Virus record (IMG/VR): IMGVR_UViG_3300020711_000014
Location: 1-50,968 of that record
DNA length: 50,968 nt
Reading direction: 5' to 3' (one strand)
Source: a virus
Taxonomy: Duplodnaviria > Caudoviricetes
Made by a program: the position numbers and the translations under genes. Positions 417-18,947 of this stretch are shown here, in pieces. Under the pieces are notes generated by a model. It had not been told where the DNA came from and ran no database searches. It was given only the letters and a program-made list of their open reading frames with translations. How positions within the stretch are numbered: the first letter of the stretch is position 1; every line of letters begins with the position of its first letter.

Positions 417-1034
417 TTAGGCGTAAGCCGTCCATTCGCTAGGCTTATAGATTGCCTTGCCTTCGATAACCGCGACGGGTTTAAACCGGCGGGCGCTTGA
501 AAATGAGTTAATCCTAAAATATGGCTCTGAATCTTCACTATATCGCTGGATTTTTTTGTTTAATATCTTGCCGATAAATTGATTGGGCGCCGGTATGCTC
601 TCGCCTTGCATAAAGCATTCGCGGCTATCCTCTGATATATCGCGAATTTGGCTAATTTTTGCCATTTGACCAGATACGCTCAAAACCTGATAAAAATCTA
701 TATTAGTTTGATCGTAACCCCATGAGCACCGGAAAACGTCCCCCGCTTTTACATCATGCGCGGCGCTTAATTGCTTGATTTTCTCGCGGCGCTCTAGCTT
801 ATCGGCGGCGGCTTTTTCTAGCTTGCTCAATTCTTCGCTAATGTAGGCGTCGCGTTTTTCGATTGTCGCAAATCTATAATGGGCGCGGGGCTTGTTAGAT
901 TTGCCACTAAAAATCAACGCGACGGGGCGCGGCTCATTAGCGCCATAAGCTGCAAATCCTAGCTCTAGGCTTTCGGCTAATAGCTTGTAGCTTTCAGGAA
1001 TAAAAAATTCTCTATCGTATGTTTTCATTTTCAA
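417..1034 (-). CDS. Early conserved hypothetical protein (GDVF..SWGYDQTNIDFYQV motif)
   Basis: 205-aa ORF with RBS cassette; motif recurrent in phage early proteins. Confidence 0.85.
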   Translation of the reverse strand: MKMKTYDREFFIPESYKLLAESLELGFAAYGANEPRPVALIFSGKSNKPRAHYRFATIEKRDAYISEELSKLEKAAADKLERREKIKQLSAAHDVKAGDVFRCSWGYDQTNIDFYQVLSVSGQMAKISQIRDISEDSRECFMQGESIPAPNQFIGKILNKKIQRYSEDSEPYFRINSFSSARRFKPVAVIEGKAIYKPSEWTAYA

Positions 1035-1058
1035 TTTTTCCTCTAGTTAATTGAATGT

Positions 1059-1205
1059 TTAACCGCAAAACCACGCGTCCGGGTTTGCCTTTAGAAATTC
1101 GCGGGCAGCCTTTACAGTGTCAAAACGCAAGTGTCTAAAATAATTGTTTTCTTCGATCGCGATCACAATCCAGCCCGCGCGATTAAATGTTAATTTTTGA
1201 GCCAT
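1059..1205 (-). CDS. Small early protein MAQKLTFNRAGW..., 48 aa
   Basis: Start reassigned to ATG at 1205, after AGGGGG RBS and the upstream stop. Confidence 0.7.
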   Translation of the reverse strand: MAQKLTFNRAGWIVIAIEENNYFRHLRFDTVKAAREFLKANPDAWFCG

Positions 1206-1207
1206 GA

Positions 1208-1312
1208 TTAAAATCCCCCTGAAATAGCATAAGCAAACATTAAACCCAAAACGGCACCCAATAGAGCCGCGCCGATCCAATCCCAAATTGTGATTTTTTT
1301 GTTTTCCATCAT
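1208..1312 (-). CDS. Small membrane peptide MMENKKITIWDWIGAALLGAVLGLMFAYAISGGF
   Basis: Hand translation; TAATG coupling to upstream ORF; one hydrophobic helix. Not in ORF track. Confidence 0.65.
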   Translation of the reverse strand: MMENKKITIWDWIGAALLGAVLGLMFAYAISGGF

Positions 1313-1428
1313 TACACCCCCAATAAAACGCGCCCAAATACAATAAATGGCACAAGCGCGATATAAATAAAAGGCGCTGCCAATGCGCCCATTAAAATTA
1401 AAAAAATCTGGCTTTCGTATTTGCTCAT
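1312..1428 (-). CDS. Small membrane peptide MSKYESQIFLILMGALAAPFIYIALVPFIVFGRVLLGV
   Basis: Hand translation; GAGGA RBS; hydrophobic. Not in ORF track. Confidence 0.65.
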   Translation of the reverse strand: MSKYESQIFLILMGALAAPFIYIALVPFIVFGRVLLGV

Positions 1429-1444
1429 TTTGTTTAATCCTCTT

Positions 1445-1690
1445 TTAATTGTTTTTAAAAAAATCTAAACATTCGTTAGAGTATTGACCGGCATCGAGCA
1501 TAGACTCAACAGTAGCCGTATAAATTGCATACCATTCGGAGGTATTAAATAGAAAACCTTGCTCCGCGCCTGTATCGTCAGCATTGTTTTCACCTGAAAA
1601 AATAACACTCTCAATTTCGTTGTATAAGTCATAGGAAATAGCACCTTTTAATGCCTCTAGCGCTTTATGCTGTTTGCCATTATTCATCAT
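1445..1690 (-). CDS. Early acidic hypothetical protein
   Basis: 81-aa ORF, AAGGGA RBS, first gene after promoter at ~1740. Confidence 0.75.
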   Translation of the reverse strand: MMNNGKQHKALEALKGAISYDLYNEIESVIFSGENNADDTGAEQGFLFNTSEWYAIYTATVESMLDAGQYSNECLDFFKNN

Positions 1691-1739
1691 TTTTTATCCC
1701 TTTATAGGTCAAATTGTCATTACTGAACTACTAGGCTCT

Positions 1740-1769
1740 AGTGTAACAGATTTTTTTGCAAAATGTCTA
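1740..1769 (-). promoter_or_regulatory. Sigma70-like early promoter (TAGACA-18-TACACT, extended -10)
   Basis: AATCTGTTACAYT core shared with sites at 39206 and 41374. Confidence 0.6.
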
Positions 1770-1804
1770 GTTTTTTTCTAGGTGTTTTCCCTAAATGTTG
1801 CTAT

Positions 1805-2122
1805 TTAGTCAAAATCGGGGCGCGGGCTAGAATTAAGCCAATTTCTATAAGCGCGATCTATACGGACAGCGCGGGCGGCGGCTTTCTCATCGTCGCGGGC
1901 TTGCGTTTGCGCGCGGCGTGTTTGCGCGGGGTCAATATATTGTCCATTCGCGATATTAAAAATTAGATCATCTAAGGCGGCGCGGGCTTGCAATTCGCTC
2001 TCATACATTCCTAGATGCTTATATTTTCCGTTAATCATCATACGGGCGCGCCATTTATTGGATTGTGCAATATAGCTTATGGCGCCCGTCCTATTCTTGC
2101 GGGTTTTTACGGTATCAGTCAT
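1805..2122 (-). CDS. AP2-domain DNA-binding protein
   Basis: WRARMMINGKYKHLGMYESELQARAA matches the AP2-type fold motif. Confidence 0.75.
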   Translation of the reverse strand: MTDTVKTRKNRTGAISYIAQSNKWRARMMINGKYKHLGMYESELQARAALDDLIFNIANGQYIDPAQTRRAQTQARDDEKAAARAVRIDRAYRNWLNSSPRPDFD

Positions 2123-2160
2123 TTTTAGCCTTTTTAGGTGTTTATCAAAGGTTAAATTTT

Positions 2161-2651
2161 ATGGCAATAATGACAATATGTCTAGTTTATAAAACGGTAA
2201 TTTATAGGGGCGATAGATGATGACTAATAGTTTTTTGCAAATTGTCATTTTTAAGGGGTTTTTAAAGTTTTTTGGGTTATGTTTTGGGTTATGTTTTTGG
2301 GGTTTTGACCTATTGGCGGGGGCTTATAGCTATTAGCTTATAGCGGGTTATTGGTCAAATTGTCATTTTTTATTTATTTATTAGAATTGGAAATATAAAA
2401 AATAGGGTTTTTACAATGTTATCGGCTAGCGGTTTAAATTGCCATGGCAATTTAGCCTATTTAGCCCATGCCATTTTGACCATGCTATCAGGCGCAAGTT
2501 TTGGGCTATTGGCTATCAGATAAGAGCTAATAGCTAGGGGCTTTTTTAATCTAGGTGAATTTTGATCGCGCCCCGCTCCGGTTTTAAATTTCAAGCCGAT
2601 AGCCCCTAGCTTATAGCTTGTAGCTAATAGCTAGCATATGACAATTTGACC
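2161..2651. repeat. Dispersed GGTCAAATTGTCAT repeats; candidate origin/iterons
   Basis: Exact at 1707-1720, 2353-2366, inverted 2638-2651; degenerate at 2170, 2237, 2444. Confidence 0.6.
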
Positions 2652-2721
2652 TATTGTTGTTTGACATAACACCGGTTATACGCAACAAGCTAGCAGCTTT
2701 TAGCTAAAGGCTTATAGCTAG
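2320..2721. repeat. Four arrays of 7-bp-phased nRGCYnn units
   Basis: 2320-2347, 2503-2544, 2593-2634, 2687-2721, e.g. tagctta tagcttg tagctaa tagctag. Confidence 0.85.
2659..2686 (-). other. dif-like XerC/XerD recombination site
   Basis: Minus strand GTTGCGTATAA-CCGGTG-TTATGTCAAAC; 11-6-11 layout, each arm 9/11 identical to E. coli dif. Confidence 0.75.
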
Positions 2722-2850
2722 GGGTTTGCAGGGCGATAACGCCCGCTAGCCCTTATTCTATATGCGCCCGCTTTTTTGCCATATAAAATCGAAAAAGGGG
2801 GTCATTAAAATAGGTGGGTACGATGATGGGGTTTTTTATTCTATAAAATA

Positions 2851-3080
2851 TGCAAAAAAGTGTTTTGCAAAGTCCAAAAAATTTTTGTAATTTTTAAAAC
2901 TAAGTTAGCAGTCACTAACATAGCTAATTTCCCGATCGGGAACTTTCTTGAAATTTCATGCACTTTTTCAACATATATTCCCGATCGGTAAATTTATGTT
3001 GAAAAACAGCCCCTAGCCCAAAACTGTCATATATAAGGTAAACCCTAGCATCTTGCATATTTAAGGGTTTATGCTAATAT
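2851..3080. promoter_or_regulatory. Cluster of operator-like palindromes and putative late promoter upstream of terS
   Basis: GTTAG-N6-CTAAC 2904-2919; TTCCCGATCGGGAA 2929 and variant 2978; TTGCAT-16-TAATAT 3053-3080. Confidence 0.55.
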
Positions 3081-3109
3081 CGAACCATCGTCAATCTTAG
3101 GAGGTAATC

Positions 3110-3523
3110 ATGGAGCGTTTTACACCAGATCCCCTATTTTATTCAATTGACCATAAGACCGATAAAATCGAAGCTACCGAAGAAGAGATTGCCAACATCT
3201 ATGATGCTGCCTATCGCGGTCTTGCCGGTGACGCACTAGCTATCGCTGCTGGCTTTTTGCCCGTAGACTTCAATCGTCTTTGCCAATTTGACCCAAAAGC
3301 TGCCGAAGCAGTGATTTATGGTCGTGCTAAAAATCATGCAGATGTAAGCGGATCCTTAATGAGAAACGCTCTCAATGGCGACACTAAAGCAGCAACGACA
3401 GTGCTCACTCACTTACATGGCTGGAAACCTGCCAAGCCAGAAGCTGATAGCTCCAATGAATTACGCATCGTCATTGAGAATACGCTGCCAGACCCCACCC
3501 CCGAACAGAAAGCTATTAGCTAA
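3110..3523 (+). CDS. terS: Terminase small subunit (putative)
   Basis: AGGAGG RBS; helical; directly upstream of and coupled to terL. Confidence 0.7.
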   Translation: MERFTPDPLFYSIDHKTDKIEATEEEIANIYDAAYRGLAGDALAIAAGFLPVDFNRLCQFDPKAAEAVIYGRAKNHADVSGSLMRNALNGDTKAATTVLTHLHGWKPAKPEADSSNELRIVIENTLPDPTPEQKAIS

Positions 3524-4809
3524 TGGCTAATACCCGACGGGTCACACTTCCAGTTTTACATTCAGGGCAACATGCCCTGTTTTTACAGCAACAACGCTTA
3601 AACGCAGTACGGTGCGGACGACGCTGGGGAAAGACACGCTTTCTGGAATGGCTTGCAGCTAGGGGCGCGGGCAACGGGCAATCCGTTGGAATCTTCGCGC
3701 CCGAGCACAAACAGCTTGCCGAACCATGGGATCACTTGCGCGACATGTTAGACCCCATCATTAAAAGTGCCAATCGCAACGACGGTACTATCAAATTGAT
3801 GAGTGGCGGCAAGATTGACTTCTGGACACTGAACGACAATGAGCTAGCAGGTCGCGGGCGCGAGTACAACTTGGTGCTCATTGATGAGGCGGGATTTACC
3901 AAGTCGCCGCAGATGAAAGACGAGATTTGGTTCAAGTCCATCAAACCAACGATGTTGACAACTCGCGGCGTATCGTGGGTGTTCTCTACCCCGAATGGCT
4001 TGGATCCGGACAACTTTTTCTACGCAGCCTGTCAAGAACCAGACCTTGGGTTTAGCTCGTTTCATGCGCCGACTAGTACAAACCCTTACGTTCCACTGGA
4101 CGAGCTTGAGCGCGAACGCGAACGCAACCACCCAATGGTATTCCAGCAAGAGTTTTTGGCGGAATTCGTGGATTGGTCAAACATCGCGCTGTTTGGTGCT
4201 GACAAGCTACTAGTTGAGGGTTTACCCGTACAATATCCAACCAATTGCGACGCGGTGTACGCCGTACTCGATACCGCGGTCAAAGGCGGCAAACAACATG
4301 ACGGCACGGCAGTGGTGTTCTTTGCGCTCAACGAGTTTGGCATTCCGCTGACCATCCTCGATTGGGATGTCGTTCAGATTGATGGCGGCTTGCTCGAGCA
4401 TTGGATCCCCAGTGTGTTCTCGCGGCTAGAAGAGTTAGCTAGGGGCTGTGGGGCAAGGTATGGTAGCGCGGGCGTGTTCGCCGAGGACACCGCAACTGGT
4501 TCAATCTTGTTACAACAAGCTGCCAACCGCGGTTGGGCGATGCGCCCGATTGATAGCAAGTTGGTGCAAGCGGGCAAGGATGAAAGAGCCGTCAGTGTGT
4601 CAGGTTACTACCATCAAGAAAAGCTCAAGATTAGCGAGTATGCGTTCAACAAAACGATAGCATTTAAAGGCTCAACGCGAAATCACTTGCTGACACAATT
4701 AGCTTCCTTTAGACTAGGGGATCCAGATGCCCACAAGAGAAGTGACGATCTGTTAGACGCAACCGTCTATGGAATTGCGCTCGGATTAGGTAACAAACTC
4801 GGATTCTAG
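3523..4809 (+). CDS. terL: Terminase large subunit
   Basis: Walker A GRRWGKT, GRGR, Walker B LVLIDEA, STP motif, C-terminal DDLLDA nuclease motif. Confidence 0.95.
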   Translation: MANTRRVTLPVLHSGQHALFLQQQRLNAVRCGRRWGKTRFLEWLAARGAGNGQSVGIFAPEHKQLAEPWDHLRDMLDPIIKSANRNDGTIKLMSGGKIDFWTLNDNELAGRGREYNLVLIDEAGFTKSPQMKDEIWFKSIKPTMLTTRGVSWVFSTPNGLDPDNFFYAACQEPDLGFSSFHAPTSTNPYVPLDELERERERNHPMVFQQEFLAEFVDWSNIALFGADKLLVEGLPVQYPTNCDAVYAVLDTAVKGGKQHDGTAVVFFALNEFGIPLTILDWDVVQIDGGLLEHWIPSVFSRLEELARGCGARYGSAGVFAEDTATGSILLQQAANRGWAMRPIDSKLVQAGKDERAVSVSGYYHQEKLKISEYAFNKTIAFKGSTRNHLLTQLASFRLGDPDAHKRSDDLLDATVYGIALGLGNKLGF

Positions 4810-4844
4810 TGGTATGATGGGCAATATATTTTTGGGAATAATCT

Positions 4845-6260
4845 ATGTCTGATATAAGCATCTCCAATACATCCCTGCCTTCCCCACTAATGTCGTTTCT
4901 TCAGACGGATTCAATTGAGCCGGGAACTCCCGCGGGCTACGAAACTTGTAAAGCTATTTTCGAGTATCACCCATTAGCCCCTAAGATTATTGAAAAACCC
5001 ATCGTTTTAGCGTTGTCCAAACCACGCATTATTACAATGGATTGCCATCCAAAAGAGATGTTGATTAAAGCATTTCAGGATGAGTGGGATAGTTTAGATG
5101 CTACCAACATTATTCGCGACGTGACGTTTCTCAAACGCGTGTACGGCGTATCCGCCGTCATCTATGGCGCCGAAGGTATTCCAACAGATAAAGAAATTGA
5201 CCCTTGGCAATTGCCGTATTTAAATTTGTACTTTAATAAACTTGACCCGTTAAACCTTGCTGGCTCAACCGTCACCAACCAAAACCCAAACGCGCCAGAC
5301 TTTCAAAAGCCGCTAGAGTACATAACGGCTGCGGGTCAGCCATACCATCCAAGTCGTAGCAAAATTGTGTATAACAATGCGCCGATTTATTTAAGTTTCC
5401 AGCCATCCGGTTTTGGTTTCACAGGTCGTTCTGTATTCCAGCGCGCCCTGTATCCTTTGAAATCATTCGTTCAGTCTATGGTCACTGACGATTTGGTCAC
5501 TTTCAAAGCGGGTCTGCTGGTCATTAAACAAAAGCAATCTGGCTCAATTGTTAATCGCTTGATGCAAACAGCCGCTGGCATTAAACGTAGCTACTTACAA
5601 CAAGGTGTTACGGGTAACGTATTGTCAATTGATATTGACGAGGACATCGAGTCTATCGACTTGAACAATACCGACACCGCGATGACTACCGCGCGTGACA
5701 ACATCATCGCCAACATTGCCGCAGCTACTGATGTACCAGCTATTCTCTTAAAAGATGAAGCCTTAGCTAACAGCTTTGCAGAAGGTAGCCAAGATGCGAT
5801 TGCAATTGCTCAATACGTCACTAGTTTGCGTAACGATATGAGAACGCTGTTTGACTTCTTTGACAAAATCGTGATGCACCGCGCATGGAACAAAGAGTTT
5901 TTTGACGCCGTTCAAGCAAAATACCCAGACATGTACGCTGGTAAAACATACGAACAAGCATTTTACGAGTGGAAAGATGCGTTTATACCAATCTGGGATT
6001 CCATGATTGAAGAAACTCCAAGCGAATTGGTCAAGACTGAAGAAGTCAAGCTCAAAGGTATGACCGAACTCTTGCGTACTATTTTGCCTGTAGTGAACCC
6101 CGAAAACCGCGCCCGCGCGATCCAATGGGCGCAAGATAATCTTTCCGAAATGAATGATATGTTCACTTCATCCATGCAACTCGATATTGAAGAGATCATG
6201 GAATATGAACCGCCTGAGCCACTAACAGCCCCAACTGAGCCGCCACACGCTAAGGACTAA
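4845..6260 (+). CDS. Portal protein (DUF1073-type)
   Basis: 471 aa after terL; HPSR, FTGRSV and IAAATDVPAILL motifs. Confidence 0.85.
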   Translation: MSDISISNTSLPSPLMSFLQTDSIEPGTPAGYETCKAIFEYHPLAPKIIEKPIVLALSKPRIITMDCHPKEMLIKAFQDEWDSLDATNIIRDVTFLKRVYGVSAVIYGAEGIPTDKEIDPWQLPYLNLYFNKLDPLNLAGSTVTNQNPNAPDFQKPLEYITAAGQPYHPSRSKIVYNNAPIYLSFQPSGFGFTGRSVFQRALYPLKSFVQSMVTDDLVTFKAGLLVIKQKQSGSIVNRLMQTAAGIKRSYLQQGVTGNVLSIDIDEDIESIDLNNTDTAMTTARDNIIANIAAATDVPAILLKDEALANSFAEGSQDAIAIAQYVTSLRNDMRTLFDFFDKIVMHRAWNKEFFDAVQAKYPDMYAGKTYEQAFYEWKDAFIPIWDSMIEETPSELVKTEEVKLKGMTELLRTILPVVNPENRARAIQWAQDNLSEMNDMFTSSMQLDIEEIMEYEPPEPLTAPTEPPHAKD

Positions 6261-6262
6261 TC

Positions 6263-7063
6263 GTGACTTTCTACGAAGTCCTTACGCAAGCGGTCAATTA
6301 CTACATCACATATGGCTTTGAAAACGAAGCTAGGCTCAAATATTGGATGGAAGAGCTTAGAAATGCGGCTGTAAAATCATTAATTACGCCTGAAAAGCTG
6401 CAAAAAGAATTAGAACGCTCTTTGAAGGGCGCTTTTGACCGATTAGTGACCAAAGGCGGGCTTGTAAACAAAGATGTTAGCCGCTTTACCGTAGCTAAAC
6501 TAACCCCCAAAATGCGCGCCGAATTAGATCGTCGCATCGTAGCAAGCGCCAACTTAATCAAGTTTAATCGTGAAGAGTCTATTAGCAATACATTGCGACG
6601 ATTTGCTGGTTGGGCTACTTCGATTCCGCCCGGCGGAAATAAAGATGTCAAACGTCAAGAAGAGAAAAAGCACATTAAAAAAGAGCTTGGGATGTTGCCG
6701 TTTAAAGAACGACGCGTCATTATTGACCAAACTCACAAGCTAATAGCCAATATCAACGAGATCGTAGCTGTTGATAGCGGTGCTATTGCAGCGCAATGGC
6801 ACAGTAATTGGCGTCAAGCAAACTACGATTATCGTGAAGATCACCGCGAATTAGATGAAAAAATATTTTTAATACGCGGTAGTTGGGCTGTAAAAGATGG
6901 TTATGTAAAATCAAAAAACGGATATACTAATGATGTAGTCGCGCCCGGCGAAGCGGTTTATTGCCGGTGCAGGTATAAGTATTTATACCGGGTGAGTCAA
7001 CTGCCCGACGAAATGATTACCCAAAAAGGTAAAGAAGCGTTACAATCCAAGAAAATTTACTAG
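6263..7063 (+). CDS. Head morphogenesis protein (SPP1 gp7/Mu F-like)
   Basis: After portal; R..H..LD and PGEAVYCRC motifs. Confidence 0.8.
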   Translation: MTFYEVLTQAVNYYITYGFENEARLKYWMEELRNAAVKSLITPEKLQKELERSLKGAFDRLVTKGGLVNKDVSRFTVAKLTPKMRAELDRRIVASANLIKFNREESISNTLRRFAGWATSIPPGGNKDVKRQEEKKHIKKELGMLPFKERRVIIDQTHKLIANINEIVAVDSGAIAAQWHSNWRQANYDYREDHRELDEKIFLIRGSWAVKDGYVKSKNGYTNDVVAPGEAVYCRCRYKYLYRVSQLPDEMITQKGKEALQSKKIY

Positions 7064-7074
7064 GGTTTTAACCT

Positions 7075-8589
7075 ATGCCATTTCAGTCGGAAAACCAACG
7101 AAAAGCGATGTACGCTGCTGCCGCGGGCAAATCTAATATTGGTATTCCAAAATCAGTAGGTGAAAAATTCATTAAACATAAAGATGACGGCGAAGCCGAA
7201 AATCTTGAATGGTTAAATGAACTTCTATTAAAAGAAATGGAAGTAAAAGCATTAAAAGAGGATTCTTTGGTATCTGCGCCCGTTCTTTTGGCGCCTACAG
7301 AGTTTGAAACTGATAGCAATATCGTGGTTCGCAAAGGCGAATTAAGCCACGAATTACGAAAATTGCAAATTAAAGATATTGGCGAAAAACTATATCAAGT
7401 TGCCCAGCACATTAAAGATCTTAAAAAAGACGATGATTGCGACGAAGAAGCTGTCCCGCGTTTTGGTGTAGAAGATAAAAACGATGCAGACCCATGCTGG
7501 GAAGGCTACAAACAATACGGCATGAAAGAAAAAGACGGTAAAAGCGTACCAAATTGCGTACCAGATGCCGAAAATGAACCAATTGAACAAAATGCTCAAT
7601 TAGTTCCAGAACCACCAAAAGAAGTAAAACCCGAAGATAACATGGGCGGCGCTCAAGGTAGAGCTGCTGGCATTATGTTTATCACCCCAAACGAAGAAGT
7701 TTTGATGATTCGTAGAGGCATGGGTGGTGGTGACTATCCCGGCACTTGGTGTATTCCGGGCGGGCATCAAAAAGGCGATGAAACCCTTGAAGAATGCGCC
7801 CGCCGTGAATGTAAAGAAGAAACTGGTATTGACTATAAAGGCAAACTAGAAGTTCTTTATGACGACGGACAATTCTGCTATTACGTTGCTCACAACTTCC
7901 CTAAAGAAGAAGTAAAACTAAATTACGAATCTTCTGGATCTGATTGGTGCAGCCCAACAGTTCCGCCAATGCCATTACATCCGGGTTTAGAAAATGCGTT
8001 CAAAATTGCAATGGCTAAAACCGAAACCGATGTAGCTAAATTGATCGCTGAGGGTTTATTAGCTAGCCCACAGATGTATGCCAATATTGCTTTGTTAGCA
8101 ATTCGCATCACCGGTACAGGTTTAGCGTTCCGTTCAAGTATCGGTGAACACGTTTGGCGTGATCCATCTTTGTATTTAAACGATGAGTTTTTACAGCGTT
8201 GTAACGGCTTGATGGTAATCATGGATCACCCCGAAACTCAAGTATTAACAACCGAAGAATTTAAAAATCGTGCAGTTGGTTCTGTTTTGCTACCTTACAT
8301 TAAAGGCGATGAAGTCTGGGGTATTGCAAAGATCTATGACCAAGATGCAATTTCCGAAATTTTGGAAGGCGAAGTATCGACTTCCCCAGCAGTTGTTTTT
8401 GACCAAACTGCTGGTAACATTACACTTACAACCGAGAATGGCGAGCCACTCTTGATTGAGGGTGTGCCATTCCTACTGGATCACATAGCAATCGTTACGA
8501 AAGCTAGGGGTTCAAAGGGAGTATGGGACAAAGGCGGCGACGCCGCTGGAGTTTTATTAACTAACAATGAGGTGTCTGAAAATGACTGA
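7075..8589 (+). CDS. Multidomain head protein: Nudix hydrolase plus DUF2213-like (putative prohead protease) domain
   Basis: Nudix box GHQKGDETLEECARRECKEETG; C-terminal IMDHP...STSP...DHIAIV; position before scaffold. Confidence 0.8.
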   Translation: MPFQSENQRKAMYAAAAGKSNIGIPKSVGEKFIKHKDDGEAENLEWLNELLLKEMEVKALKEDSLVSAPVLLAPTEFETDSNIVVRKGELSHELRKLQIKDIGEKLYQVAQHIKDLKKDDDCDEEAVPRFGVEDKNDADPCWEGYKQYGMKEKDGKSVPNCVPDAENEPIEQNAQLVPEPPKEVKPEDNMGGAQGRAAGIMFITPNEEVLMIRRGMGGGDYPGTWCIPGGHQKGDETLEECARRECKEETGIDYKGKLEVLYDDGQFCYYVAHNFPKEEVKLNYESSGSDWCSPTVPPMPLHPGLENAFKIAMAKTETDVAKLIAEGLLASPQMYANIALLAIRITGTGLAFRSSIGEHVWRDPSLYLNDEFLQRCNGLMVIMDHPETQVLTTEEFKNRAVGSVLLPYIKGDEVWGIAKIYDQDAISEILEGEVSTSPAVVFDQTAGNITLTTENGEPLLIEGVPFLLDHIAIVTKARGSKGVWDKGGDAAGVLLTNNEVSEND

Positions 8590-9421
8590 AAATAAGATTG
8601 AGCCAAAGGCAGATGCCCAAGGCGATAAATTAGATGCCATTATGTCTTTATTGGGAAAAACAATGTCCCGTTTAGATGAAATGGAAAAAAACCTTCCTGC
8701 GCCACCCCTAGTAACTGCGGCTGATAAAAAAGCTAAAGCGAAAAAAGATGACGACATGGAAGCATGTGACGATGATGAAGAAGAAGAAGCTAAGAAAGAT
8801 GACGATGAGTCTGAAGCTAAAGCTAAGAAATTCATGATGCGTAAGGCTAAGAAGGACGCAGAGGGATCTGATCCTAAAGAGCACGGCAAAGCTGGCGAGA
8901 TCAAGCCAGATGACGAAGGCGAAGTTGAACATCCGGGTCATATGGAGTTCAAAAAAGACGACGACGAAGAAGATGACCGTAAAGATGATGACGAAGAAGC
9001 AGCTAAGAAAGATGACGAAGAAGCCGCATACGCTGATTGTCAAGCTAAAGCTGATTCTGTTTACTCAGCTTTTGGTAAATCTGCATCACGTCCATTACAA
9101 GGCGAAAGCTTAATGGCTTATCGCAAACGTATGCTCCGTGGTTTGCAAGCTCATAGCGACGAAATGAAAAACGTAAACATCAACAAGATTGCTGACGAAA
9201 CAATGTTGCAAATCGTTGAAAAACGTGTTTATGCTGACGCTCTTGCTGCTTCCCGTGGAACTGGCGCAATCGCAAAAGGTCAATTGATCGCGTTGCACAA
9301 GAAAGACCAAGCTGGTCGTACCATCACTGAATACCGTGGTGATATGGAAGCATGGTTAGGTGACTTCAAGCTCCCAACTCATCGGGTCGTGAAGTTTAAT
9401 ACTGAAAATGTTAAGCGATAA
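8582..9421 (+). CDS. Capsid scaffolding protein (putative)
   Basis: Highly charged KKDDDEE repeats; GAGG RBS before ATG 8582. Confidence 0.7.
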   Translation: MTENKIEPKADAQGDKLDAIMSLLGKTMSRLDEMEKNLPAPPLVTAADKKAKAKKDDDMEACDDDEEEEAKKDDDESEAKAKKFMMRKAKKDAEGSDPKEHGKAGEIKPDDEGEVEHPGHMEFKKDDDEEDDRKDDDEEAAKKDDEEAAYADCQAKADSVYSAFGKSASRPLQGESLMAYRKRMLRGLQAHSDEMKNVNINKIADETMLQIVEKRVYADALAASRGTGAIAKGQLIALHKKDQAGRTITEYRGDMEAWLGDFKLPTHRVVKFNTENVKR

Positions 9422-9431
9422 GGAATAAGCC

Positions 9432-10091
9432 ATGACCGCACAAATTTCTCTACAACCAATGGTAACAACCAACGCTGCTGGCTTATTTAATGTCAACTCC
9501 GCTGGTTTTACACAAGGTGATGCACTCGACGATCCAGCAGTTAAATTCTGGTTGGCTGGTGGTGTTCTTTCAACTTCTGCTACTTCTCCTTTATGGGGCG
9601 GAGTTCCAATTGCTGAATTGATCCCAACTGCACAATCTGGTGTTTACTCTGGTGACACACAACCCGGTACTGACACATTAGGTTCTACCATTATCCAAGC
9701 ATCTACTGTAGCTGCTCCGACTGGTATTTCCGTGTTTAACCAAGCTTTCCAAGGTATCACAACCCCACAAAGCACAGCACCGTTGTACTCTCCCGGCATG
9801 TCTGTAAACTTCTACCGTTTCGGTTCAGGCGCTCGTATTCCATTGCCTTGCGATGCTTCTATCGTAGCTTTGGCTGGCAGCTCTATCACTGAAACTGTGT
9901 ATTGGGATACAACAAACCTCCGTTTAACAACAACAGCAACGAGCAACTTTGCAGTACCTTGCAAAATCTTGCGTATTAGCACTTCTGGTAACAAAATTGT
10001 TAACTACAATTCTGGTACTGGCAATGCTAACTGGTCTAACACCATCGTTGGTGGCTCATCTGCTGCTCCTGTAGCAGTTGTTCTAATCTAA
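9432..10091 (+). CDS. Head decoration/cement protein (putative)
   Basis: Between scaffold and MCP; strong codon bias. Confidence 0.6.
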   Translation: MTAQISLQPMVTTNAAGLFNVNSAGFTQGDALDDPAVKFWLAGGVLSTSATSPLWGGVPIAELIPTAQSGVYSGDTQPGTDTLGSTIIQASTVAAPTGISVFNQAFQGITTPQSTAPLYSPGMSVNFYRFGSGARIPLPCDASIVALAGSSITETVYWDTTNLRLTTTATSNFAVPCKILRISTSGNKIVNYNSGTGNANWSNTIVGGSSAAPVAVVLI

Positions 10092-10105
10092 GAAAGGAAT
10101 AGATC

Positions 10106-11131
10106 ATGTCAGGTTTTGCACCTTCATATGTAACAGTAAATCCACACTTCATGATGCCTGAGCTGATTATGCAGTACAGCTTGGCTTCTGGTGCGTTTAC
10201 AACTCTGGCAACAGAGAACCCAATGCCACGCTTAGGCGAGGCTGACCTTTATGTTTACGCTAAAAAGGTTCAGTTGACGACTCAAGTATCTGCTAACCAA
10301 TCGACTGCTAACCAGTTGCCAAGCGCATCTGTTATCCCTTCGATGATTAGTACTGCTACTTATCGTCTGCAAACCCGCGCTCAGTACGACAACTTCGATG
10401 AAGCTGCTACTGGTGCTTGGGGCTATGCACTCCCAGAGGCTCTCCGTCTTGCTGCTCGTCAAGGTATCGCCCAGCAGTTGCGTAACGCTCTTCTCTATGG
10501 CTACAACCCAGCCAACGGCGAAGGCTTGCTCAATACTTCTGGCGCTACTCGCATCAACTTAGGTGCAGACAGCAACGGTAACGTAGGCTACAGCACATGG
10601 GATTCTGGTCAATTAGCTCAGTTCTTGCTAAATGCAATCGGTAACTTAAAAACTACTACATTGCAAATTGGTCAACCTTTGCGCTTGGTATTCCTTGCTC
10701 CACAGCGTTTCATTCAACAGATCAGCTACGGCGGCATCGTGTCATTGACACAATTCCAACGTATCGGCGCTGGTGTTGAAACTGCTGCTGGCTTGGTTGA
10801 AACCGTAGCTCAGTGGGCAGGTGGTGACGATGTATCTTTTGCTGCTGATGACACACTCATCGGTCAAGGTTACGGCGGTACTGACGCAATCATCTTGATT
10901 GCTCCAGAACTCAAGATTCCTAAAGCAAACTCACGCATCAACACCAACGTATTTGCTGAATTGACACCAAATACAACTGCAACATCTTTGATGCTCTGCG
11001 ACGTGGCTGCACCTACAGAGATTCCTACTCCATTGCCAGACGGTGGTATTACTACCCTCTACACAATGCGTAGCACCTCTGGTTGGGGTATCCGTCCAGA
11101 AGGCATGACGATTATTTCGGCTGCCTATTAA
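10106..11131 (+). CDS. Major capsid protein
   Basis: 341 aa; YGYNPANGEGLLN motif; strong codon bias; terminator follows. Confidence 0.85.
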   Translation: MSGFAPSYVTVNPHFMMPELIMQYSLASGAFTTLATENPMPRLGEADLYVYAKKVQLTTQVSANQSTANQLPSASVIPSMISTATYRLQTRAQYDNFDEAATGAWGYALPEALRLAARQGIAQQLRNALLYGYNPANGEGLLNTSGATRINLGADSNGNVGYSTWDSGQLAQFLLNAIGNLKTTTLQIGQPLRLVFLAPQRFIQQISYGGIVSLTQFQRIGAGVETAAGLVETVAQWAGGDDVSFAADDTLIGQGYGGTDAIILIAPELKIPKANSRINTNVFAELTPNTTATSLMLCDVAAPTEIPTPLPDGGITTLYTMRSTSGWGIRPEGMTIISAAY

Positions 11132-11151
11132 TAAAATCTCGTGAGGATTTT

Positions 11152-11175
11152 AACCACCCTTCGGGGTGGTTTTTT
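11152..11175 (+). terminator. Rho-independent terminator
   Basis: AACCACCC-TTCG-GGGTGGTT followed by T tract. Confidence 0.9.
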
Positions 11176-11190
11176 GTTAATATATGAGAA

Positions 11191-11268
11191 CCCAAGTGAT
11201 GCTGGGAAACATTCTTTATGGGGAGCCGGGGGTTCAAAAGACCCCGCATCATCGGCTTCCCACCCATA
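11191..11268 (+). ncRNA. Structured leader RNA candidate with possible pseudoknot
   Basis: Hairpin CCCA(AGTGATGC)TGGG; stem GGGAGCCG/CGGCTTCC containing a hairpin and a GCATCAT bulge. Confidence 0.45.
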
Positions 11269-11281
11269 CTAGGGGAAAATA

Positions 11282-11788
11282 ATGGATTTATTTATCGCAA
11301 ATTGCAGTAAACAGGACTTTTTGTTCACATATATGTTGCCTGAGAACATTAGACCTTTTTCACACAAAATCCGTGCTGGAGCACAAATTAAGCTAGTTCA
11401 AGATCAACTTCAAGTCGATGCGATCATTAAACAGCATGAGTTGTATGGAATGATGGAAGTCACTAAAGTTAAAAAAGGCTTTGGTGGACTATGCTATCGT
11501 TTTAATAAACCAATTAATGTTGAAGCAATTGAAGCCGGTATTAGTCAATCTGACCAAGAAAATATTGACCGCGCTCAAGAAGCCCGTAGTATCACTGCCG
11601 CAGCGCAAGATCAAATCATTTCAATGAAAGCACAAGAAATGGGAATCAAACAAAAGGGCGGTATTGAGTTTGAAATTACGGAAGATAAAAAGAACGCAGC
11701 CGATCAATCCGAAAAGTTTGACCAAAAAATTGAAGTGATTCATGAAGGTGAAGCACCAAAAGGACGTGGTAGACCAAGAAAAGGATAA
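11282..11788 (+). CDS. Virion-module hypothetical protein
   Basis: 168 aa; AGGGG RBS; C-terminal GRGRPRK. Confidence 0.8.
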   Translation: MDLFIANCSKQDFLFTYMLPENIRPFSHKIRAGAQIKLVQDQLQVDAIIKQHELYGMMEVTKVKKGFGGLCYRFNKPINVEAIEAGISQSDQENIDRAQEARSITAAAQDQIISMKAQEMGIKQKGGIEFEITEDKKNAADQSEKFDQKIEVIHEGEAPKGRGRPRKG

Positions 11789-11793
11789 TAAAT

Positions 11794-11814
11794 AGCCCCC
11801 TTGCGGGGCTTTTT
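11794..11814 (+). terminator. Rho-independent terminator
   Basis: AGCCCC-loop-GGGGCT followed by TTTT. Confidence 0.75.
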
Positions 11815-11850
11815 CATTTAGAATATAGAAAATCTTTCTAGGATGGTTCT

Positions 11851-12309
11851 ATGGCTGATCCAATTGTTTCGCCACCCTCGTTAAACGGCTTTATTGCGTG
11901 GGCGCAAGCCGTTATGGGTATTCCCACTCAGGCTATGTCACCAACCGACCCCGGCTGGAATTACGCTTATGTATTGGCTTTGGATATTGTTCCAACCGAT
12001 TTTGCGGCAACTGTACCTGATATTTATACGCTGACAGTTTATAACTGGGCAGGAAGTCAGCTTTTACAGTTTCAACAAGATTACGCTGGACAAAGCTATT
12101 TCACTACATTACGCGCTCAATTTGGCATTAACAACTTTATTGCCGGTGTAGTCACATCTGCGGGCGACGTAAGCACGAATGAAGCGCTTGCCGTAGGTCA
12201 TGGCTTGCGTGATCTTAGCTTATTGGATTTGCAACGCATTAAAGACCCATACGGGCGCGTAGCGCTGTCATACATGCAACAACTTGGCACACTCTGGGGC
12301 TTAACCTAA
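11851..12309 (+). CDS. Head-tail adaptor (DUF4054-like, putative)
   Basis: Synteny; C-terminal DPYGR..L motif. Confidence 0.6.
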   Translation: MADPIVSPPSLNGFIAWAQAVMGIPTQAMSPTDPGWNYAYVLALDIVPTDFAATVPDIYTLTVYNWAGSQLLQFQQDYAGQSYFTTLRAQFGINNFIAGVVTSAGDVSTNEALAVGHGLRDLSLLDLQRIKDPYGRVALSYMQQLGTLWGLT

Positions 12310-12779
12310 TGAAGCTACATTTAGGCGTTGTAGAAGTACCTGAAATTGAAGGTACTACCTATACCGTAGGACAAGACCTTGAAAAAAGATACGGTCTATT
12401 TTCAATGTTTTATAACGCCCATCAACAAGAGATTGCCGATTTAATCGCTAAAGACGCCGCAATAGGTTTAGAAATGGCAGAAAAAAACATGCCAATTTCT
12501 GTAAAATCTGTTTTTGCAGTTAGCGGGGAAACAATTACCGATAAAATGCACAACTTTTTGACTAGTCAAGAAATCGAACGCGTGGCGGGAAAATACGGCG
12601 AAGAAGGTATTCCAACCAAAGCCGCATTAGAAGGCATTAACACTCGCACTGCAACCGGAAAAGCTCCTAAAAGAATACGAAAAGGTCAAAAATTTAAAAA
12701 GGTGGTTACAGGTGTTCGCCGCCCATCTTTTATTGATACCGGTATTTTTGAGCGATCTTTAAAAGGATGGATTGAATAA
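12309..12779 (+). CDS. Neck/tail completion protein (putative)
   Basis: RPSFIDTG motif; synteny. Confidence 0.55.
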   Translation: MKLHLGVVEVPEIEGTTYTVGQDLEKRYGLFSMFYNAHQQEIADLIAKDAAIGLEMAEKNMPISVKSVFAVSGETITDKMHNFLTSQEIERVAGKYGEEGIPTKAALEGINTRTATGKAPKRIRKGQKFKKVVTGVRRPSFIDTGIFERSLKGWIE

Positions 12780-13780: not shown

Positions 13781-13833
13781 AATTAAGTAGTAAGATGTTA
13801 ATATCTCAACCTAGTGTATAAAAGGAGTTACAA

Positions 13834-14148
13834 ATGGCAATCGTTACCAACCCAACCGTTCAAAATGGTGCTTTACTGACAGCCCAAGGTCAAAAAACAT
13901 TTTTCAATATCACTGCTGATACTTTAGTAAAAGCGACTGCTGGTCGTGTTGCTAAGGTTAGCGTTTTAGTTGCTGGCTCTGTTGCTGGCTCTGTAAACGA
14001 CGCTGCAACTATTGGCGGTGCTGCTACTGCAAACGAAATTGCAGTAATCCCAAACACTGTTGGCGTTTATAACATTGACTTCCCTGTTTCTAATGGCATC
14101 GTCATTAAAGCTGGTACAGGCAATACTATCGCTGTTAGCTACATCTAA
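13834..14148 (+). CDS. Small structural/decoration protein
   Basis: AAGGAG RBS; beta-rich A/T/V composition. Confidence 0.65.
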   Translation: MAIVTNPTVQNGALLTAQGQKTFFNITADTLVKATAGRVAKVSVLVAGSVAGSVNDAATIGGAATANEIAVIPNTVGVYNIDFPVSNGIVIKAGTGNTIAVSYI

Positions 14149-14161
14149 TTAGGGGGCAACT

Positions 14162-15472: not shown

Positions 15473-15484
15473 GGAGAATAAATA

Positions 15485-15928: not shown

Positions 15929-15996
15929 CGTAAACTAGGCTAAAGCAATCTCCCCGGATTAGTAACTTTTTCCGGGGATTTTTATAAAAGAAAACG

Positions 15997-16572: not shown

Positions 16573-16694
16573 ATAAGCTATCAACCAGTGGATTTAGTGA
16601 TTTTGTTAACGAATATGGTTTAAAATGGATAGACGCAAGCGAATATAGGCAAAGGCACCTGATTCGAGCGATTAATAACAAATCTTTGTTTTAA
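16384..16694 (+). CDS. -1 frame extension of tail chaperone (G-T-like, putative frameshift product)
   Basis: Open -1 frame ending 8 nt before the tape measure; slippery T TTT TTT at 16386-16392. Confidence 0.5.
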
Positions 16695-16702
16695 GGCACA
16701 TC

Positions 16703-18280: not shown

Positions 18281-18288
18281 AGGTTTTT

Positions 18289-18939: not shown

Positions 18940-18947
18940 ACGATATA

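What the first reader, a model, noticed from the sequence alone, without database searches (positions are those of the whole stretch)
960..3530. 7-bp-phased RGCY arrays around the early/packaging junction, overprinted on coding sequence
Seen: tandem heptamers nRGCYnn, mostly TAGCTnn, at 960-994 (5 units, inside a CDS), 2320-2347, 2503-2544, 2593-2634, 2687-2721, 3510-3530 (terS/terL junction), 49413-49447 and 50040-50088 (7 units, inside a CDS). On the circle all lie within about 5 kb. A period of 7 cannot come from codon structure, and the flanking bases vary, which argues for selection on spacing rather than recent slippage. Inference: sites for a protein that polymerises along DNA (TerS/pac wrapping, an initiator or segregation protein), or clustered methylase/restriction targets (AGCT/RGCY) in first-entering DNA.
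Basis: partly seen in the sequence, partly recalled or inferred. Interest (0 to 1): 0.78.

Follow-up and report, generated by a model that had tools for sequence, protein, structure and literature searches.

The report
Seven-base repeat arrays in phage control hub
An uncultured freshwater phage carries real, conserved rows of 7-base repeats around the junction of its early and packaging genes, most likely docking sites where its own replication helicase starts DNA copying, a known kind of element in a new form.

Summary
RGCY at a 7-bp lag occurs 55 times, against 11.9±3.4 in shuffles. Six chains have 5 or more units (none in 200 shuffles), and 31 of 55 lag-7 pairs lie in 10% of the genome.

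The arrays sit in two non-coding hubs that bracket the leftward early operon. They flank blocks conserved across an uncultured phage family (73 related loci). Between close relatives the GC anchor is kept (19/21 columns invariant) while spacers drift (11/31). More distant lineages keep the layout but use other 7-bp units (TGCTGGG, TGTCTGC, TACCGGC). Arrays on either side of block 1 are usually inverted. The two arrays inside genes exceed what the proteins require (2/5000 and 0/5000 synonymous recodings).

Candidate readers:
- The AP2-like gene is absent from relatives that keep the arrays.
- The TerS-like protein does not track the unit.
- Family searches found no DNA methyltransferase, ParA/ParB or ribbon-helix-helix protein.
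- The primase-helicase has a winged-helix-like C-terminal domain.

Best reading (about 0.4): SaPI/P4-style origin iterons. Rivals: an omega-like regulator or host factor, a pac site, or a hairpin or slippage-prone repeat. It is a new variant of a known kind, of moderate interest.

The parts
960..994 (.). 5-unit heptad array inside the 5' part of the leftward gene 417-1034
   Evidence: It is partly conserved in L006, L007 and L010. Only 2 of 5000 synonymous recodings reach 5 units.
2269..2301 (+). 12-bp repeats (TTTTGGGTTATG x2.6) at the left edge of the hub. The GGGTYATG motif recurs in relatives.
2320..2347 (.). Heptad array 0 (3-4 units)
   Evidence: It holds the same position in 10 aligned relatives.
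2353..2365 (+). 13-bp motif GGTCAAATTGTCA. Further copies lie at 1707-1719 (+) and 2639-2651 (reverse complement).
   Evidence: 4 of 6 genome matches to the 8-mer core lie in 1712-2646; I13, 17 nt, 100% complementary.
2366..2404 (.). AT-rich patch of about 39 bp between array 0 and array A, a candidate unwinding element
   Evidence: sequence read directly. An AT-rich stretch sits at the same place in relatives.
2503..2544 (+). Heptad array A
   Evidence: It is 81% complementary to array B over 31 nt (I2).
2543..2594 (.). Conserved block 1 (GC-rich core CGCGCCCCGCT followed by TTTTAAATTT)
   Evidence: Alignment of the window with 10 relatives. Also seen in L019, L022, L026, L028 and L074.
2593..2634 (-). 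Heptad array B, inverted relative to A and C (TAGC in 5 of 5 units on the + strand)
   Evidence: I2, I3.
2635..2686 (.). Conserved block 2: TGACAATTTGACC, then an imperfect palindrome ACATAAC-N4-GTTATAC
   Evidence: The palindrome arms are kept while its centre varies between lineages.
2687..2721 (+). Heptad array C
   Evidence: It is 80% complementary to array B over 30 nt (I3).
2722..2835 (.). Conserved block 3 (hairpin GGGCGATAACGCCC; TTTTTTGCCATATAAAA; AAAAAGGGGGTCATTAA)
   Evidence: The 11-mer GGGGGTCATTA marks the family in other contigs.
3434..3452 (.). 3-unit array in the 3' part of the TerS-like gene
3510..3530 (.). 3-unit array across the stop of the TerS-like gene and the start of terL
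   Evidence: It is conserved in L006 and L010.
49413..49447 (.). Heptad array at the end of the second non-coding hub (about 48980-49480), 0.8 kb past the primase-helicase stop
   Evidence: Arrays sit at the same place in L007, L010 and L049 and L033.
49457..49479 (.). GC hairpin GCCGCC-TTAT-GGCGGC with T-runs on both sides, a likely two-way terminator abutting the array
   Evidence: sequence read directly. This is an inference.
50040..50088 (.). 7-unit array inside the leftward gene 49918-50205
   Evidence: 0 of 5000 synonymous recodings reach 7 units.
46258..48597 (+). Primase-helicase (779 aa) with a winged-helix-like C-terminal domain, the candidate reader of the arrays
   Evidence: - Pfam DUF5906, E 2.2e-10.
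- PHROG DNA primase.
- PDB NrS-1 primase chain 6k9e_A, E 6.9e-5.
- Model of the last 190 aa and fold searches.
3110..3523 (+). TerS-like protein (137 aa), the rival candidate reader
   Evidence: - Its stop overlaps the terL start.
- No Pfam, PHROG or PDB sequence match.
- Best fold match is the Sf6 small terminase 3hef_A, Z 5.9, rmsd 4.0, 68 aligned, which is weak.

Best explanation
The heptad arrays are short iterons of the phage's replication-origin and early-control hub. Each unit offers a 3-4 bp anchor (GCT, often the palindrome AGCT) every 7 bp. Rows of 3-7 units, usually in opposite orientation on either side of a conserved block, would recruit several copies of a DNA-binding domain side by side.

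The most likely reader is the winged-helix-like C-terminal domain of the phage's own primase-helicase. It would assemble on the arrays and open the neighbouring AT-rich or core DNA, as SaPI Rep and P4 alpha do at their origins.

The long perfect runs seen in some relatives are slippage expansions of one unit variant, laid on top of this constrained core.

What is shown:
- The arrays are real and non-random.
- Their positions are conserved.
- There is selection on the anchor.
- They are inverted around block 1.
- They go beyond what the coding sequence needs.
- A winged-helix-like domain is present on the helicase.

What is inferred:
- That this domain binds the heptads.
- That the hub is an origin.
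For: 1. Arrays are far beyond chance and clustered.

2. The layout is conserved. The order array 0 / AT-rich patch / array A / block 1 / array B / block 2 / array C / block 3 is shared by the window and 10 aligned relatives. It is also recognisable in L026, L028 and L074, which use other units.

3. Selection acts on the anchor. In four lineages with TerL 89-98% identical, GC columns are invariant in 19/21 cases against 11/31 for the three middle spacer columns (Fisher p = 1.3e-4).

4. Each lineage uses its own unit at both hubs, which lie 3-4 kb apart. The window group uses GCTAGGG/GCTAATA, L049 uses TAGCTnn and L033 uses CTGGGT/GCTGGG. Slippage within a single array cannot produce this.

5. 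Arrays A and B are inverted around block 1. The window shows 81% complementarity. A stem enclosing block 1 is predicted in 6 of 9 lineages folded: window, L026, L074, L049 (short), L056 and L013, but not L055, L019 or L022. SaPI origins have penta- or hexanucleotide iterons on both sides of an AT-rich region, pointing in opposite directions and read by the winged-helix C-terminal domain of a self-loading helicase (PMC9371898, passages read).

6. The primase-helicase matches that type of initiator. It carries a D5-type helicase domain (Pfam DUF5906 E 2.2e-10; PDB NrS-1 primase E 6.9e-5). Its last 190 aa model as helices plus a beta-hairpin (pLDDT 80-87 over most of residues 80-170). The fold matches are almost all winged-helix domains (best Z 7.0), including the C-terminal region of NrS-1 (Z 4.4).

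7. The one lineage whose anchor is GCG rather than GCT (L072/L061) also has a strongly divergent helicase C-terminal domain, while its TerS-like protein stays 67% identical to the window's.

8. Iterons overprinted on genes have precedent. P1 oriL is annotated inside repL.
Against: - The main cluster lies about 4.7 kb from the primase-helicase gene and next to the TerS-like gene. SaPI origins lie immediately downstream of rep. Only the 49413 array is near the helicase (0.8 kb).
- The L019/G003 lineage keeps blocks 1-3 and the helicase but has only 1-3 units per array, so long arrays are dispensable.
- The helicase C-terminal domain is nearly the same in lineages with GCTAATA, TCTTAAT/GCTAAAT and TGCTGGK units. 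Any specificity must therefore rest on the GCT anchor alone.
- The covariation in point 7 is a single event.
- Two other conserved repeat motifs in the hub (GGTCAAATTGTCA and GGGTYATG) are equally good candidates for the helicase's sites.
- All fold matches are weak (Z <= 7, Foldseek E >= 0.05).
- In L055 arrays A and B have the same orientation.
- AGCT-phased heptads also occur in 11 viral contigs with no protein similar to this phage's at E <= 1e-5. At least one lies between genes of what looks like a structural operon (L210).
- There is no functional data of any kind.
Confidence: 0.4

Rival explanations
1. The arrays are operators for a small cooperative DNA-binding protein, as with the omega repressor of pSM19035 or MetJ. 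That protein may be encoded by the phage, possibly a different one in each lineage, or it may be a host factor. It coats the arrays that bracket and pepper the early operon, and so times early against late transcription.
For: - Contiguous 7-bp repeats in direct or inverted orientation, with four or more needed for full activity, are exactly the omega/parS design (PMC9499535, passages read).
- The arrays lie at both ends of the early operon and inside two early genes.
- Units differ between lineages whose hosts probably differ. GGCC counts are 0 in some loci and 13-54 in others.
- A 53-aa basic protein (48818-48979) is conserved in every lineage that reaches that region. It is 90-98% identical among the GCTA-type lineages and sits beside the second hub.
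- Earlier notes from this scan report host MetJ-box arrays in other phages. These are leads only.
Against: - No ribbon-helix-helix, helix-turn-helix repressor or ParA was found among 82 ORFs by Pfam or PHROGs.
- No early gene of the window is shared with the array-bearing genomes G001 and G002, apart from a TreK-like gene that the array-poor G003 also carries.
- The small basic protein has no family match. Its sequence types do not map cleanly onto the units: L056 has type II protein but keeps GCTAACG units.
Confidence: 0.2
2. The arrays are the recognition part of a pac or cos site. The TerS-like protein binds the arrays on both sides of a cleavage core (block 1 or the block 2 palindrome), as PacA does at the repeated hexamers of P1 pac.
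For: - The hub lies 0.4-0.8 kb upstream of the TerS-like gene, and small arrays sit in that gene's 3' end and at the terL start.
- P1 pac has 4 and 3 hexamers (spacings 7, 12, 15 and 12, 11) on either side of about 95 bp.
- The TerS-like model weakly resembles the Sf6 small terminase (Z 5.9, rmsd 4.0, 68 aligned) and PaP3 small terminase (Foldseek E 1.3).
Against: - The TerS-like protein is identical in L049 (GCTAACA) and L050 (GCTAGTT). It is nearly identical in L055, L056 and L058, whose array-A units differ.
- L072 has GCGCGGT units but a TerS-like protein 67% identical to the window's.
- Contig ends of relatives do not fall at one homologous nucleotide.
- Arrays also lie 3-4 kb away, beside the primase operon.
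Confidence: 0.1
3. There is no dedicated reader. The arrays matter as self-complementary, register-tolerant repeats that form hairpins or cruciforms around the blocks, in DNA or in the early or late leader RNA. Alternatively they are simply slippage-prone heptanucleotide microsatellites, like the cyanobacterial STRR repeats (recalled from memory, not read here).
For: - The 296-nt hub folds better than all 200 shuffles on both strands (z -4.5 and -3.7).
- A stem enclosing block 1 is kept with quite different sequences in 6 of 9 lineages.
- Array A turns over fast. L048 has AGCTAAC x11.7 and L050 has GCTAGTT x12.4, with the same arrays B and C. L056 has TCTTAAT, and L041 has 39 copies of TACCGGC.
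- GCTAACA x3 occurs in at least 120 stretches of bacterial genomes from many phyla and in 14 viral stretches without the family's block 3 motif.
- In L202, L206 and L213 such arrays flank a GC hairpin.
Against: - Degenerate arrays with a conserved anchor and free spacers are not what recent slippage leaves behind.
- The arrays inside genes are kept against synonymous drift.
- Hairpin pairing would conserve complementarity rather than a fixed GC phase.
- L055 lacks the inversion.
Confidence: 0.2
4. The arrays are clustered methylation or restriction targets (AGCT/RGCY) that mark or protect this region.
For: - AGCT is a 4-bp palindrome present in many units.
- The genome avoids GGCC completely (0 against 127 expected), which shows strong restriction pressure.
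- P1 uses GATC-bearing repeats at pac and oriR.
Against: - No DNA methyltransferase was found among the 82 ORFs.
- AGCT is not among the clearly over- or under-represented palindromes.
- Other lineages use units with no common palindrome, such as TGCTGGG and TGTCTGC.
Confidence: 0.03

Closest known systems
SaPI/PICI (and satellite phage P4) replication origins read by a self-loading primase-helicase
   Same: - Short iterons lie in sets on both sides of a core or AT-rich region, in opposite orientation.
- The initiator is a D5/SF3-type helicase with a winged-helix C-terminal domain.
- The iteron sequence differs between relatives.
(PMC9371898, passages read; window data. The P4 details are recalled.)
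   Different: - Units are 7 bp in strict tandem phase, not 5-6 bp.
- Only a 3-4 bp anchor is constrained.
- There are at least four arrays plus satellites inside genes.
- The main cluster is 4.7 kb from the helicase gene, beside the TerS-like gene.
- One array is a hypervariable minisatellite.
omega (ParB) heptad operators / parS of plasmid pSM19035
   Same: Contiguous 7-bp repeats occur in direct and inverted orientation, and four or more contiguous units are needed for function. This is the only well-studied strictly 7-bp-phased protein-binding array I know of (PMC9499535, passages read).
   Different: No omega-like ribbon-helix-helix protein or ParA partner was found here. The unit sequence is different. 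This looks like a lytic phage with no need for segregation.
Phage P1 pac site and P1 oriR heptamers
   Same: - At pac, two clusters of short repeats flank a core of about 95 bp.
- At oriR there are GATC-bearing repeats.
- Each repeat carries a 4-bp palindrome.
   Different: P1 spacings are irregular: 7, 12, 15 and 12, 11 at pac, and 7, 10, 11, 23 at oriR. P1 encodes the methylase Dmt, while no DNA methylase was found here.
Cyanobacterial STRR heptanucleotide repeats and the T7 SRL/SRR heptamer arrays next to the terminal repeat
   Same: They share heptanucleotide periodicity, intergenic location, and an unknown or disputed function. The T7 arrays lie near genome ends and packaging signals.
   Different: STRRs are host-chromosome repeats with no known link to an origin. 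As I recall, the T7 heptamers are interspersed rather than in strict tandem phase.

Membership tests
SaPI/P4-type iteron origin | The initiator is a self-loading D5/SF3-type helicase, alone or fused to a primase. | tested here: met
   Pfam DUF5906 E 2.2e-10. PHROG DNA primase E 2.6e-18. PDB NrS-1 primase 6k9e_A E 6.9e-5 over residues 486-617.
SaPI/P4-type iteron origin | A C-terminal winged-helix domain reads the iterons. | tested here: inconclusive
   The model of the last 190 aa has pLDDT 80-87 over most of residues 80-170 and a helix-helix-beta-hairpin layout. Matches are almost all winged-helix domains but weak: best Z 7.0 (rmsd 3.6, 92 aligned), NrS-1 C-terminal region Z 4.4, Foldseek E >= 0.05. 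Binding was not tested.
SaPI/P4-type iteron origin | Short iterons, at least two on each side of an AT-rich or core region, point in opposite directions. | tested here: met
   Arrays of 3-6 units. A/B are 81% and B/C 80% complementary. Orientation is A+ B- in L026, L074 and L013. The AT-rich patch is at 2366-2404.
SaPI/P4-type iteron origin | The origin lies immediately downstream of the rep gene. | tested here: not met
   The main cluster (2320-2721) is about 4.7 kb from the helicase stop (48597) on the circle. Only the 49413 array is near it, at 0.8 kb.
SaPI/P4-type iteron origin | The region supports initiator-dependent replication. | not testable with these tools
   This needs a replication assay or marker-frequency data.
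omega/parS heptad system (pSM19035) | Four or more contiguous 7-bp repeats in direct or inverted orientation. | tested here: met
omega/parS heptad system (pSM19035) | A ribbon-helix-helix omega-like binder and a ParA (delta) partner are encoded nearby. | tested here: inconclusive
   No such Pfam or PHROG match among 82 ORFs. Small fast-evolving proteins can escape these profiles.
P1-type pac site | Two clusters of short repeats flank a cleavage core, in or next to the small-terminase gene. | tested here: met
   Arrays A/B and B/C flank blocks 1 and 2, 0.4-0.6 kb upstream of the TerS-like gene. The P1 layout was measured.
P1-type pac site | The small terminase recognises the repeats, so protein and repeat should change together. 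| tested here: not met
   The TerS-like protein is identical in L049 and L050 although their units differ. L072's is 67% identical to the window's although its units are GCGCGGT.
P1-type pac site | Genome ends map to the site. | tested here: inconclusive
   23 of the 46 loci cut off upstream by a contig end stop 500-1620 nt upstream of terL, but not at one homologous base, and five start inside or at an array. No virion read data are available.

The most novel reading that the evidence does not exclude
The AGCT-anchored heptads may be a general, undescribed 7-bp DNA (or RNA) code, not just this helicase's iterons. In this reading a filament-forming reader coats arrays that bracket and run through a phage's early region, including inside genes, to silence, mark or insulate it. 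The hypervariable array A would act as a contingency tract that retunes the early/late switch by slippage. The same AGCT-phased arrays, flanking GC hairpins in viral contigs that share no protein with this phage (L202, L206, L213, L210), would then belong to one wider class, comparable to the still unexplained STRR heptamers of cyanobacteria.
Probability: 0.12. Interest if true: 0.75.

Novelty: new variant of a known kind. Interest (0 to 1): 0.5.

Why it matters
If the reading is right, this family of abundant uncultured freshwater phages shows a compact origin grammar: a 3-4 bp anchor in strict 7-bp phase, in inverted rows around conserved cores. That grammar could be searched for to locate origins in metagenomic phage genomes, where origins are almost never annotated.

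It also shows binding-site arrays being written into coding sequence and kept there by selection. And it shows one array evolving as a minisatellite beside constrained ones.

The family offers many natural variants (different units, copy numbers and orientations, and a near-arrayless lineage). Together these make the function directly testable in vitro, even though the host is unknown.

Tried and rejected
- **AP2-like protein (1805-2122) as reader: rejected.** Its AP2 match is weak (Pfam E 0.057; PHROG HNH-endonuclease family E 1e-8). It has no homologue in L006/L070, L007, L010 or L012, which keep the arrays, nor in the five complete relatives G001-G005. Only weak hits exist, in L022 (43%) and L043 (27%).
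- **Physical genome ends from contig ends: no support.** There is no common end. The excess of contig ends near the hub fits assembly breaks at repeats.
- **GC skew for an origin: uninformative.** It follows the direction of transcription.
- **Rfam: nothing.** No family reached its gathering score in the whole window.
- **Promoter and terminator scan of 1650-3150: not significant.** 8 promoter-like sites against 5.2±2.2 in shuffles. My attempts to read blocks 1 and 2 as sigma-70 promoters by eye failed.
- **Host identification from GCTAACA x3 in bacterial genomes: failed.** At least 120 stretches turned up across many phyla.
- **Cultured relatives: none close.** The nearest TerL and capsid matches are 50-55% identical, in Yersinia, Klebsiella and Pantoea phages, and the one whose terminase region I scanned (Yersinia phage vB_YenM_29.18, L232) has no such arrays. 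The metagenomic record MW202483.1 shares the primase (53%) and the TerS-like protein (49%). It has 9-11-bp repeats rather than heptads.
- **TerS-like protein against PDB sequences by profile: no match at E <= 10**.
- **Small basic protein 48818-48979: no match** in Pfam, PHROGs or named Atlas clusters.
- **Search for one early gene present in all array-bearing genomes and absent from the array-poor G003: none found**.
- **Six-frame stop-codon idea for TAGCTAA-type units: dropped.** I considered it, but G-rich units in other lineages carry no stops. This rests on my reading of the units.
- **Chi-site idea: dropped.** The window's units are too degenerate for it.
- **Literature search for heptanucleotide repeats in phages:** one unrelated paper.
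- **Earlier notes of this scan:** nothing for this genome or this sequence.

Full report
**1. What the window is**

It is a complete or near-complete 50,968-bp virus record (CheckV 100%, no end repeats), 42% G+C.

Gene families:
- A rightward late block runs from 3110 to about 36.3 kb. It holds a TerS-like gene, terL, portal, capsid, a baseplate-bearing tail, a 1172-aa collagen-repeat fibre, glycosyltransferases and a lysozyme.
- The replication module lies at 39-48.6 kb. It holds an SNF2 helicase, a VRR-NUC-type endonuclease, a DUF2800/PD-(D/E)XK exonuclease, a family A polymerase and a 779-aa primase-helicase.
- A leftward operon of small, mostly unknown early genes runs from 2122 across the record ends to about 49482.

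I found no integrase, repressor, ParA/ParB or DNA methyltransferase. No cultured phage is close. TerL and capsid are 50-55% identical to temperate phages of Yersinia, Klebsiella and Pantoea.

**2.

- RGCY pairs at lag 7 number 55, against 11.9±3.4 (max 21) in 200 dinucleotide shuffles. Lags 14 and 21 give 36 and 37.
- Chains of >=3 / >=5 units: 15 / 6 observed, against 0.67 / 0 in shuffles.
- 31 of the 55 pairs lie in 49400..3540, which is 10% of the genome.
- The signal is mostly GCT on the + strand: RGCT gives 44 lag-7 pairs and AGCY gives 23.
- TAGCT makes up 16 of the 39 units in the eight arrays (my count), so 'mostly TAGCT' is too strong.
- The arrays inside genes are not explained by the encoded peptides. 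Only 2 of 5000 (gene 417-1034) and 0 of 5000 (gene 49918-50205) synonymous recodings reach the observed chain length. For the TerS-like gene the figure is 97 of 5000.

**3. Anatomy**

The arrays sit in two non-coding hubs at the two ends of the early operon, plus two sites inside early genes and two small ones at the 3' end of the TerS-like gene.

Hub 1 (2123-3109) reads, left to right:
- 12-bp GGGTTATG repeats (2269-2301)
- array 0 (2320-2347)
- the 13-mer GGTCAAATTGTCA (2353-2365, with further copies at 1707-1719 and, inverted, at 2639-2651)
- an AT-rich patch of about 39 bp (2366-2404)
- array A (2503-2544)
- block 1 (2543-2594)
- array B (2593-2634)
- block 2 (2635-2686), which holds an imperfect palindrome ACATAAC-N4-GTTATAC
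- array C (2687-2721)
- block 3 (2722-2835)
- a TGCAAAA...TTTTGCA palindrome
- a sigma-70-like promoter that I read by eye just upstream of the TerS-like gene

Arrays A/B and B/C are inverted repeats: 81% complementary over 31 nt and 80% over 30 nt.

Hub 2 (about 48980-49480) follows the primase operon. It ends with the 49413 array, which abuts a GC hairpin with T-runs on both sides.

**4. Relatives**

A TerL search of IMG/VR gave 73 distinct related loci.
- 30 of the 73 carry RGCY chains of 4 or more units.
- Others carry period-7 arrays with different units at the same place: TGGGTGC x16, TGCTGGT x9.4, TGTCTGC x6.4, CGGTGCG x6.3, CTTAATT x13.9 and TACCGGC x39.
- Among tandem arrays of 5 or more copies in these loci, period 7 (23 arrays) outnumbers the other non-triplet periods 4, 5, 8 and 10 (8, 2, 6 and 4 arrays).

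An alignment of the hub from the window and 10 relatives shows blocks 1-3 conserved and the arrays variable in length and sequence. The same blocks and array positions can be recognised in L026, L028 and L074, which use other units.

Five findings matter most:
- **(a) The anchor is constrained.** Among four lineages with TerL 89-98% identical, the GC anchor is invariant in 19 of 21 columns. The three middle spacer columns are invariant in 11 of 31 (Fisher p = 1.3e-4).
- **(b) Both hubs share the lineage's unit.** Each lineage uses its own unit at both hubs, 3-4 kb apart. Slippage within one array cannot explain this.
- **(c) Array B is inverted relative to A.** In lineages with asymmetric units this holds for L026, L074 and L013. 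A stem enclosing block 1 is predicted in 6 of 9 lineages folded. It is not predicted in L055, nor in L019 and L022, whose arrays are vestigial.
- **(d) Long arrays are dispensable.** The L019/G003 lineage keeps all three blocks but only 1-3 units per array.
- **(e) Array A is a hypervariable minisatellite.** L048 and L050 have the same arrays B and C and an identical TerS-like protein, but array A is AGCTAAC x11.7 in one and GCTAGTT x12.4 in the other. L056 has amplified TCTTAAT, a one-base variant of GCTTAAT that has lost the anchor.

There are therefore two layers: short, degenerate, constrained arrays, and recent slippage expansions.

**5. Who reads them?**

- **AP2-like gene: excluded as a conserved reader.** It is absent from L006/L070, L007, L010 and L012 and from the five complete relatives, all of which keep arrays or blocks. 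It looks like the DNA-binding module of an HNH-AP2 homing endonuclease. A full copy of such an endonuclease sits at 40583-41089.
- **TerS-like protein: unlikely.**
  - It has no family or PDB sequence match.
  - Its model (mean pLDDT 78; five helices between residues 24 and 102) has the Sf6 small terminase as best but weak fold match (Z 5.9).
  - It does not change with the unit.
- **Early genes: no candidate.** No early gene is shared by all array-bearing genomes.
- **Primase-helicase: best candidate.**
  - It is conserved throughout the family.
  - Its last 190 aa model as a winged-helix-like domain, and the fold matches are nearly all winged-helix proteins, though all are weak (best Z 7.0).
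  - This domain is similar in all lineages with a GCT anchor and strongly divergent in L072/L061, whose anchor is GCG. That is one event only.
- **53-aa basic protein (48818-48979): open candidate.** My first ORF pick missed it. It is present in every lineage that reaches that region and is 90-98% identical among the GCTA-type lineages. It matches no family, so it remains open.

**6. Reading**

The best-supported mechanism is an iteron-type origin or early-control hub. Rows of 7-bp units recruit several winged-helix domains of the self-loading primase-helicase on both sides of a core that is then opened. This is the SaPI design (PMC9371898, passages read). I put it at about 0.4.

Weighing against it: the distance from the helicase gene, the near-arrayless lineage, the other repeat motifs in the hub, and the weak fold evidence.

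Rivals:
- An omega- or MetJ-like cooperative regulator or a host factor, 0.2 (PMC9499535, passages read).
- A structure-forming or slippage-prone repeat with no dedicated reader, 0.2. Both strands fold better than all 200 shuffles. AGCT-phased heptads also flank GC hairpins in viral contigs that share no protein with this phage.
- A pac site, 0.1.
- Methylation targets, 0.03.

Earlier notes from this scan read similar heptamer arrays lying between a primase-helicase and terS in other phages as SaPI-like origins. I treat these as leads, not as support.

**7. Limits**

- The host is unknown.
- There are no reads, transcripts or methylation data.
- All fold matches are weak.
- The covariation evidence is confounded by relatedness.
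- Supplementary files of the two papers were not consulted. For both papers I read only the passages returned by term search.
- Statements about P4, STRR and T7 are recalled from memory.

Noticed in passing
whole window: GGCC is absent (0 against 127 expected from a Markov model) and so is GGWCC. TGATCA, CAGCTG, ATCGAT and TGCGCA are also at 0, and several other 6-bp palindromes are at 1-2. This suggests a host rich in restriction systems. Related loci split into GGCC-free ones and ones with 13-54 sites.
   Followed up: partly
window 48818-48979 (+): A 53-aa basic protein (MNKPTRNDSG...GGRPTK) is conserved in every lineage of the family that reaches this region. It is 90-98% identical across lineages whose primase is only 65-89% identical. 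A similar KGG...GGRP tail ends a homing-endonuclease-like ORF in L056. It has no family match.
   Followed up: partly
window 36300-36400: At the convergent junction after the late block there are 11-bp repeats of the type TTGTMGACAT and a palindrome ATGTGTAATTAATTACACAT. This may be a second iteron-like or operator cluster.
   Followed up: no
window 2921-3010: About 90 bp present only in the window among the 11 aligned hubs. It carries nested inverted repeats (TTCCCGATCGGGAA / TTCCCGATCGG; TTTTTCAACATATATT / AATTTATGTTGAAAAA). It looks like a small inserted element.
   Followed up: no
window 37431-37943 (-): A gene matching the dATP/dGTP diphosphohydrolase N-terminal domain (Pfam PF18909, E 9.7e-30). 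Enzymes of this kind accompany base-modified phage DNA. It is present in G005 and G003 but not in G001, G002 or G004.
   Followed up: no
window 40583-41089 (-) and 1805-2122 (-): A full HNH-AP2 homing endonuclease sits between the SNF2 helicase and the VRR-NUC-type gene. It is absent from all five complete relatives. The 105-aa AP2-like ORF next to the hub matches only the DNA-binding part of the same PHROG family.
   Followed up: partly
L202, L206, L213, L210, L200 (IMG/VR contigs): These contigs have no protein similar to this phage's at E <= 1e-5, yet they carry degenerate AGCT-phased heptad arrays. In L202, L206 and L213 inverted arrays flank the same GC hairpin (GCGCGC-TGCG-GCGCGC). In L210 they lie between two genes of an operon.
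   Followed up: partly
L041 1-278, L040 1-92: 39 and 13 perfect copies of TACCGGC at the very ends of two contigs of a related lineage. Assemblies of this family often break in the hub: 23 of the 46 loci cut off upstream by a contig end stop 500-1620 nt upstream of terL.
   Followed up: partly
window 26608-30126 (+): A 1172-aa fibre protein with 11 collagen-repeat stretches and a C-terminal endosialidase-chaperone domain. It accounts for most of the period-9/18/27/45 tandem repeats in the window.
   Followed up: no
L233 (MW202483.1) 9815-10019: A podovirus-like record shares the primase (53%) and the TerS-like protein (49%). It has inverted 9-11-bp repeats with a GGTAGTG core about 135 bp apart in its early region. 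This may be the counterpart of the heptad arrays.
   Followed up: no
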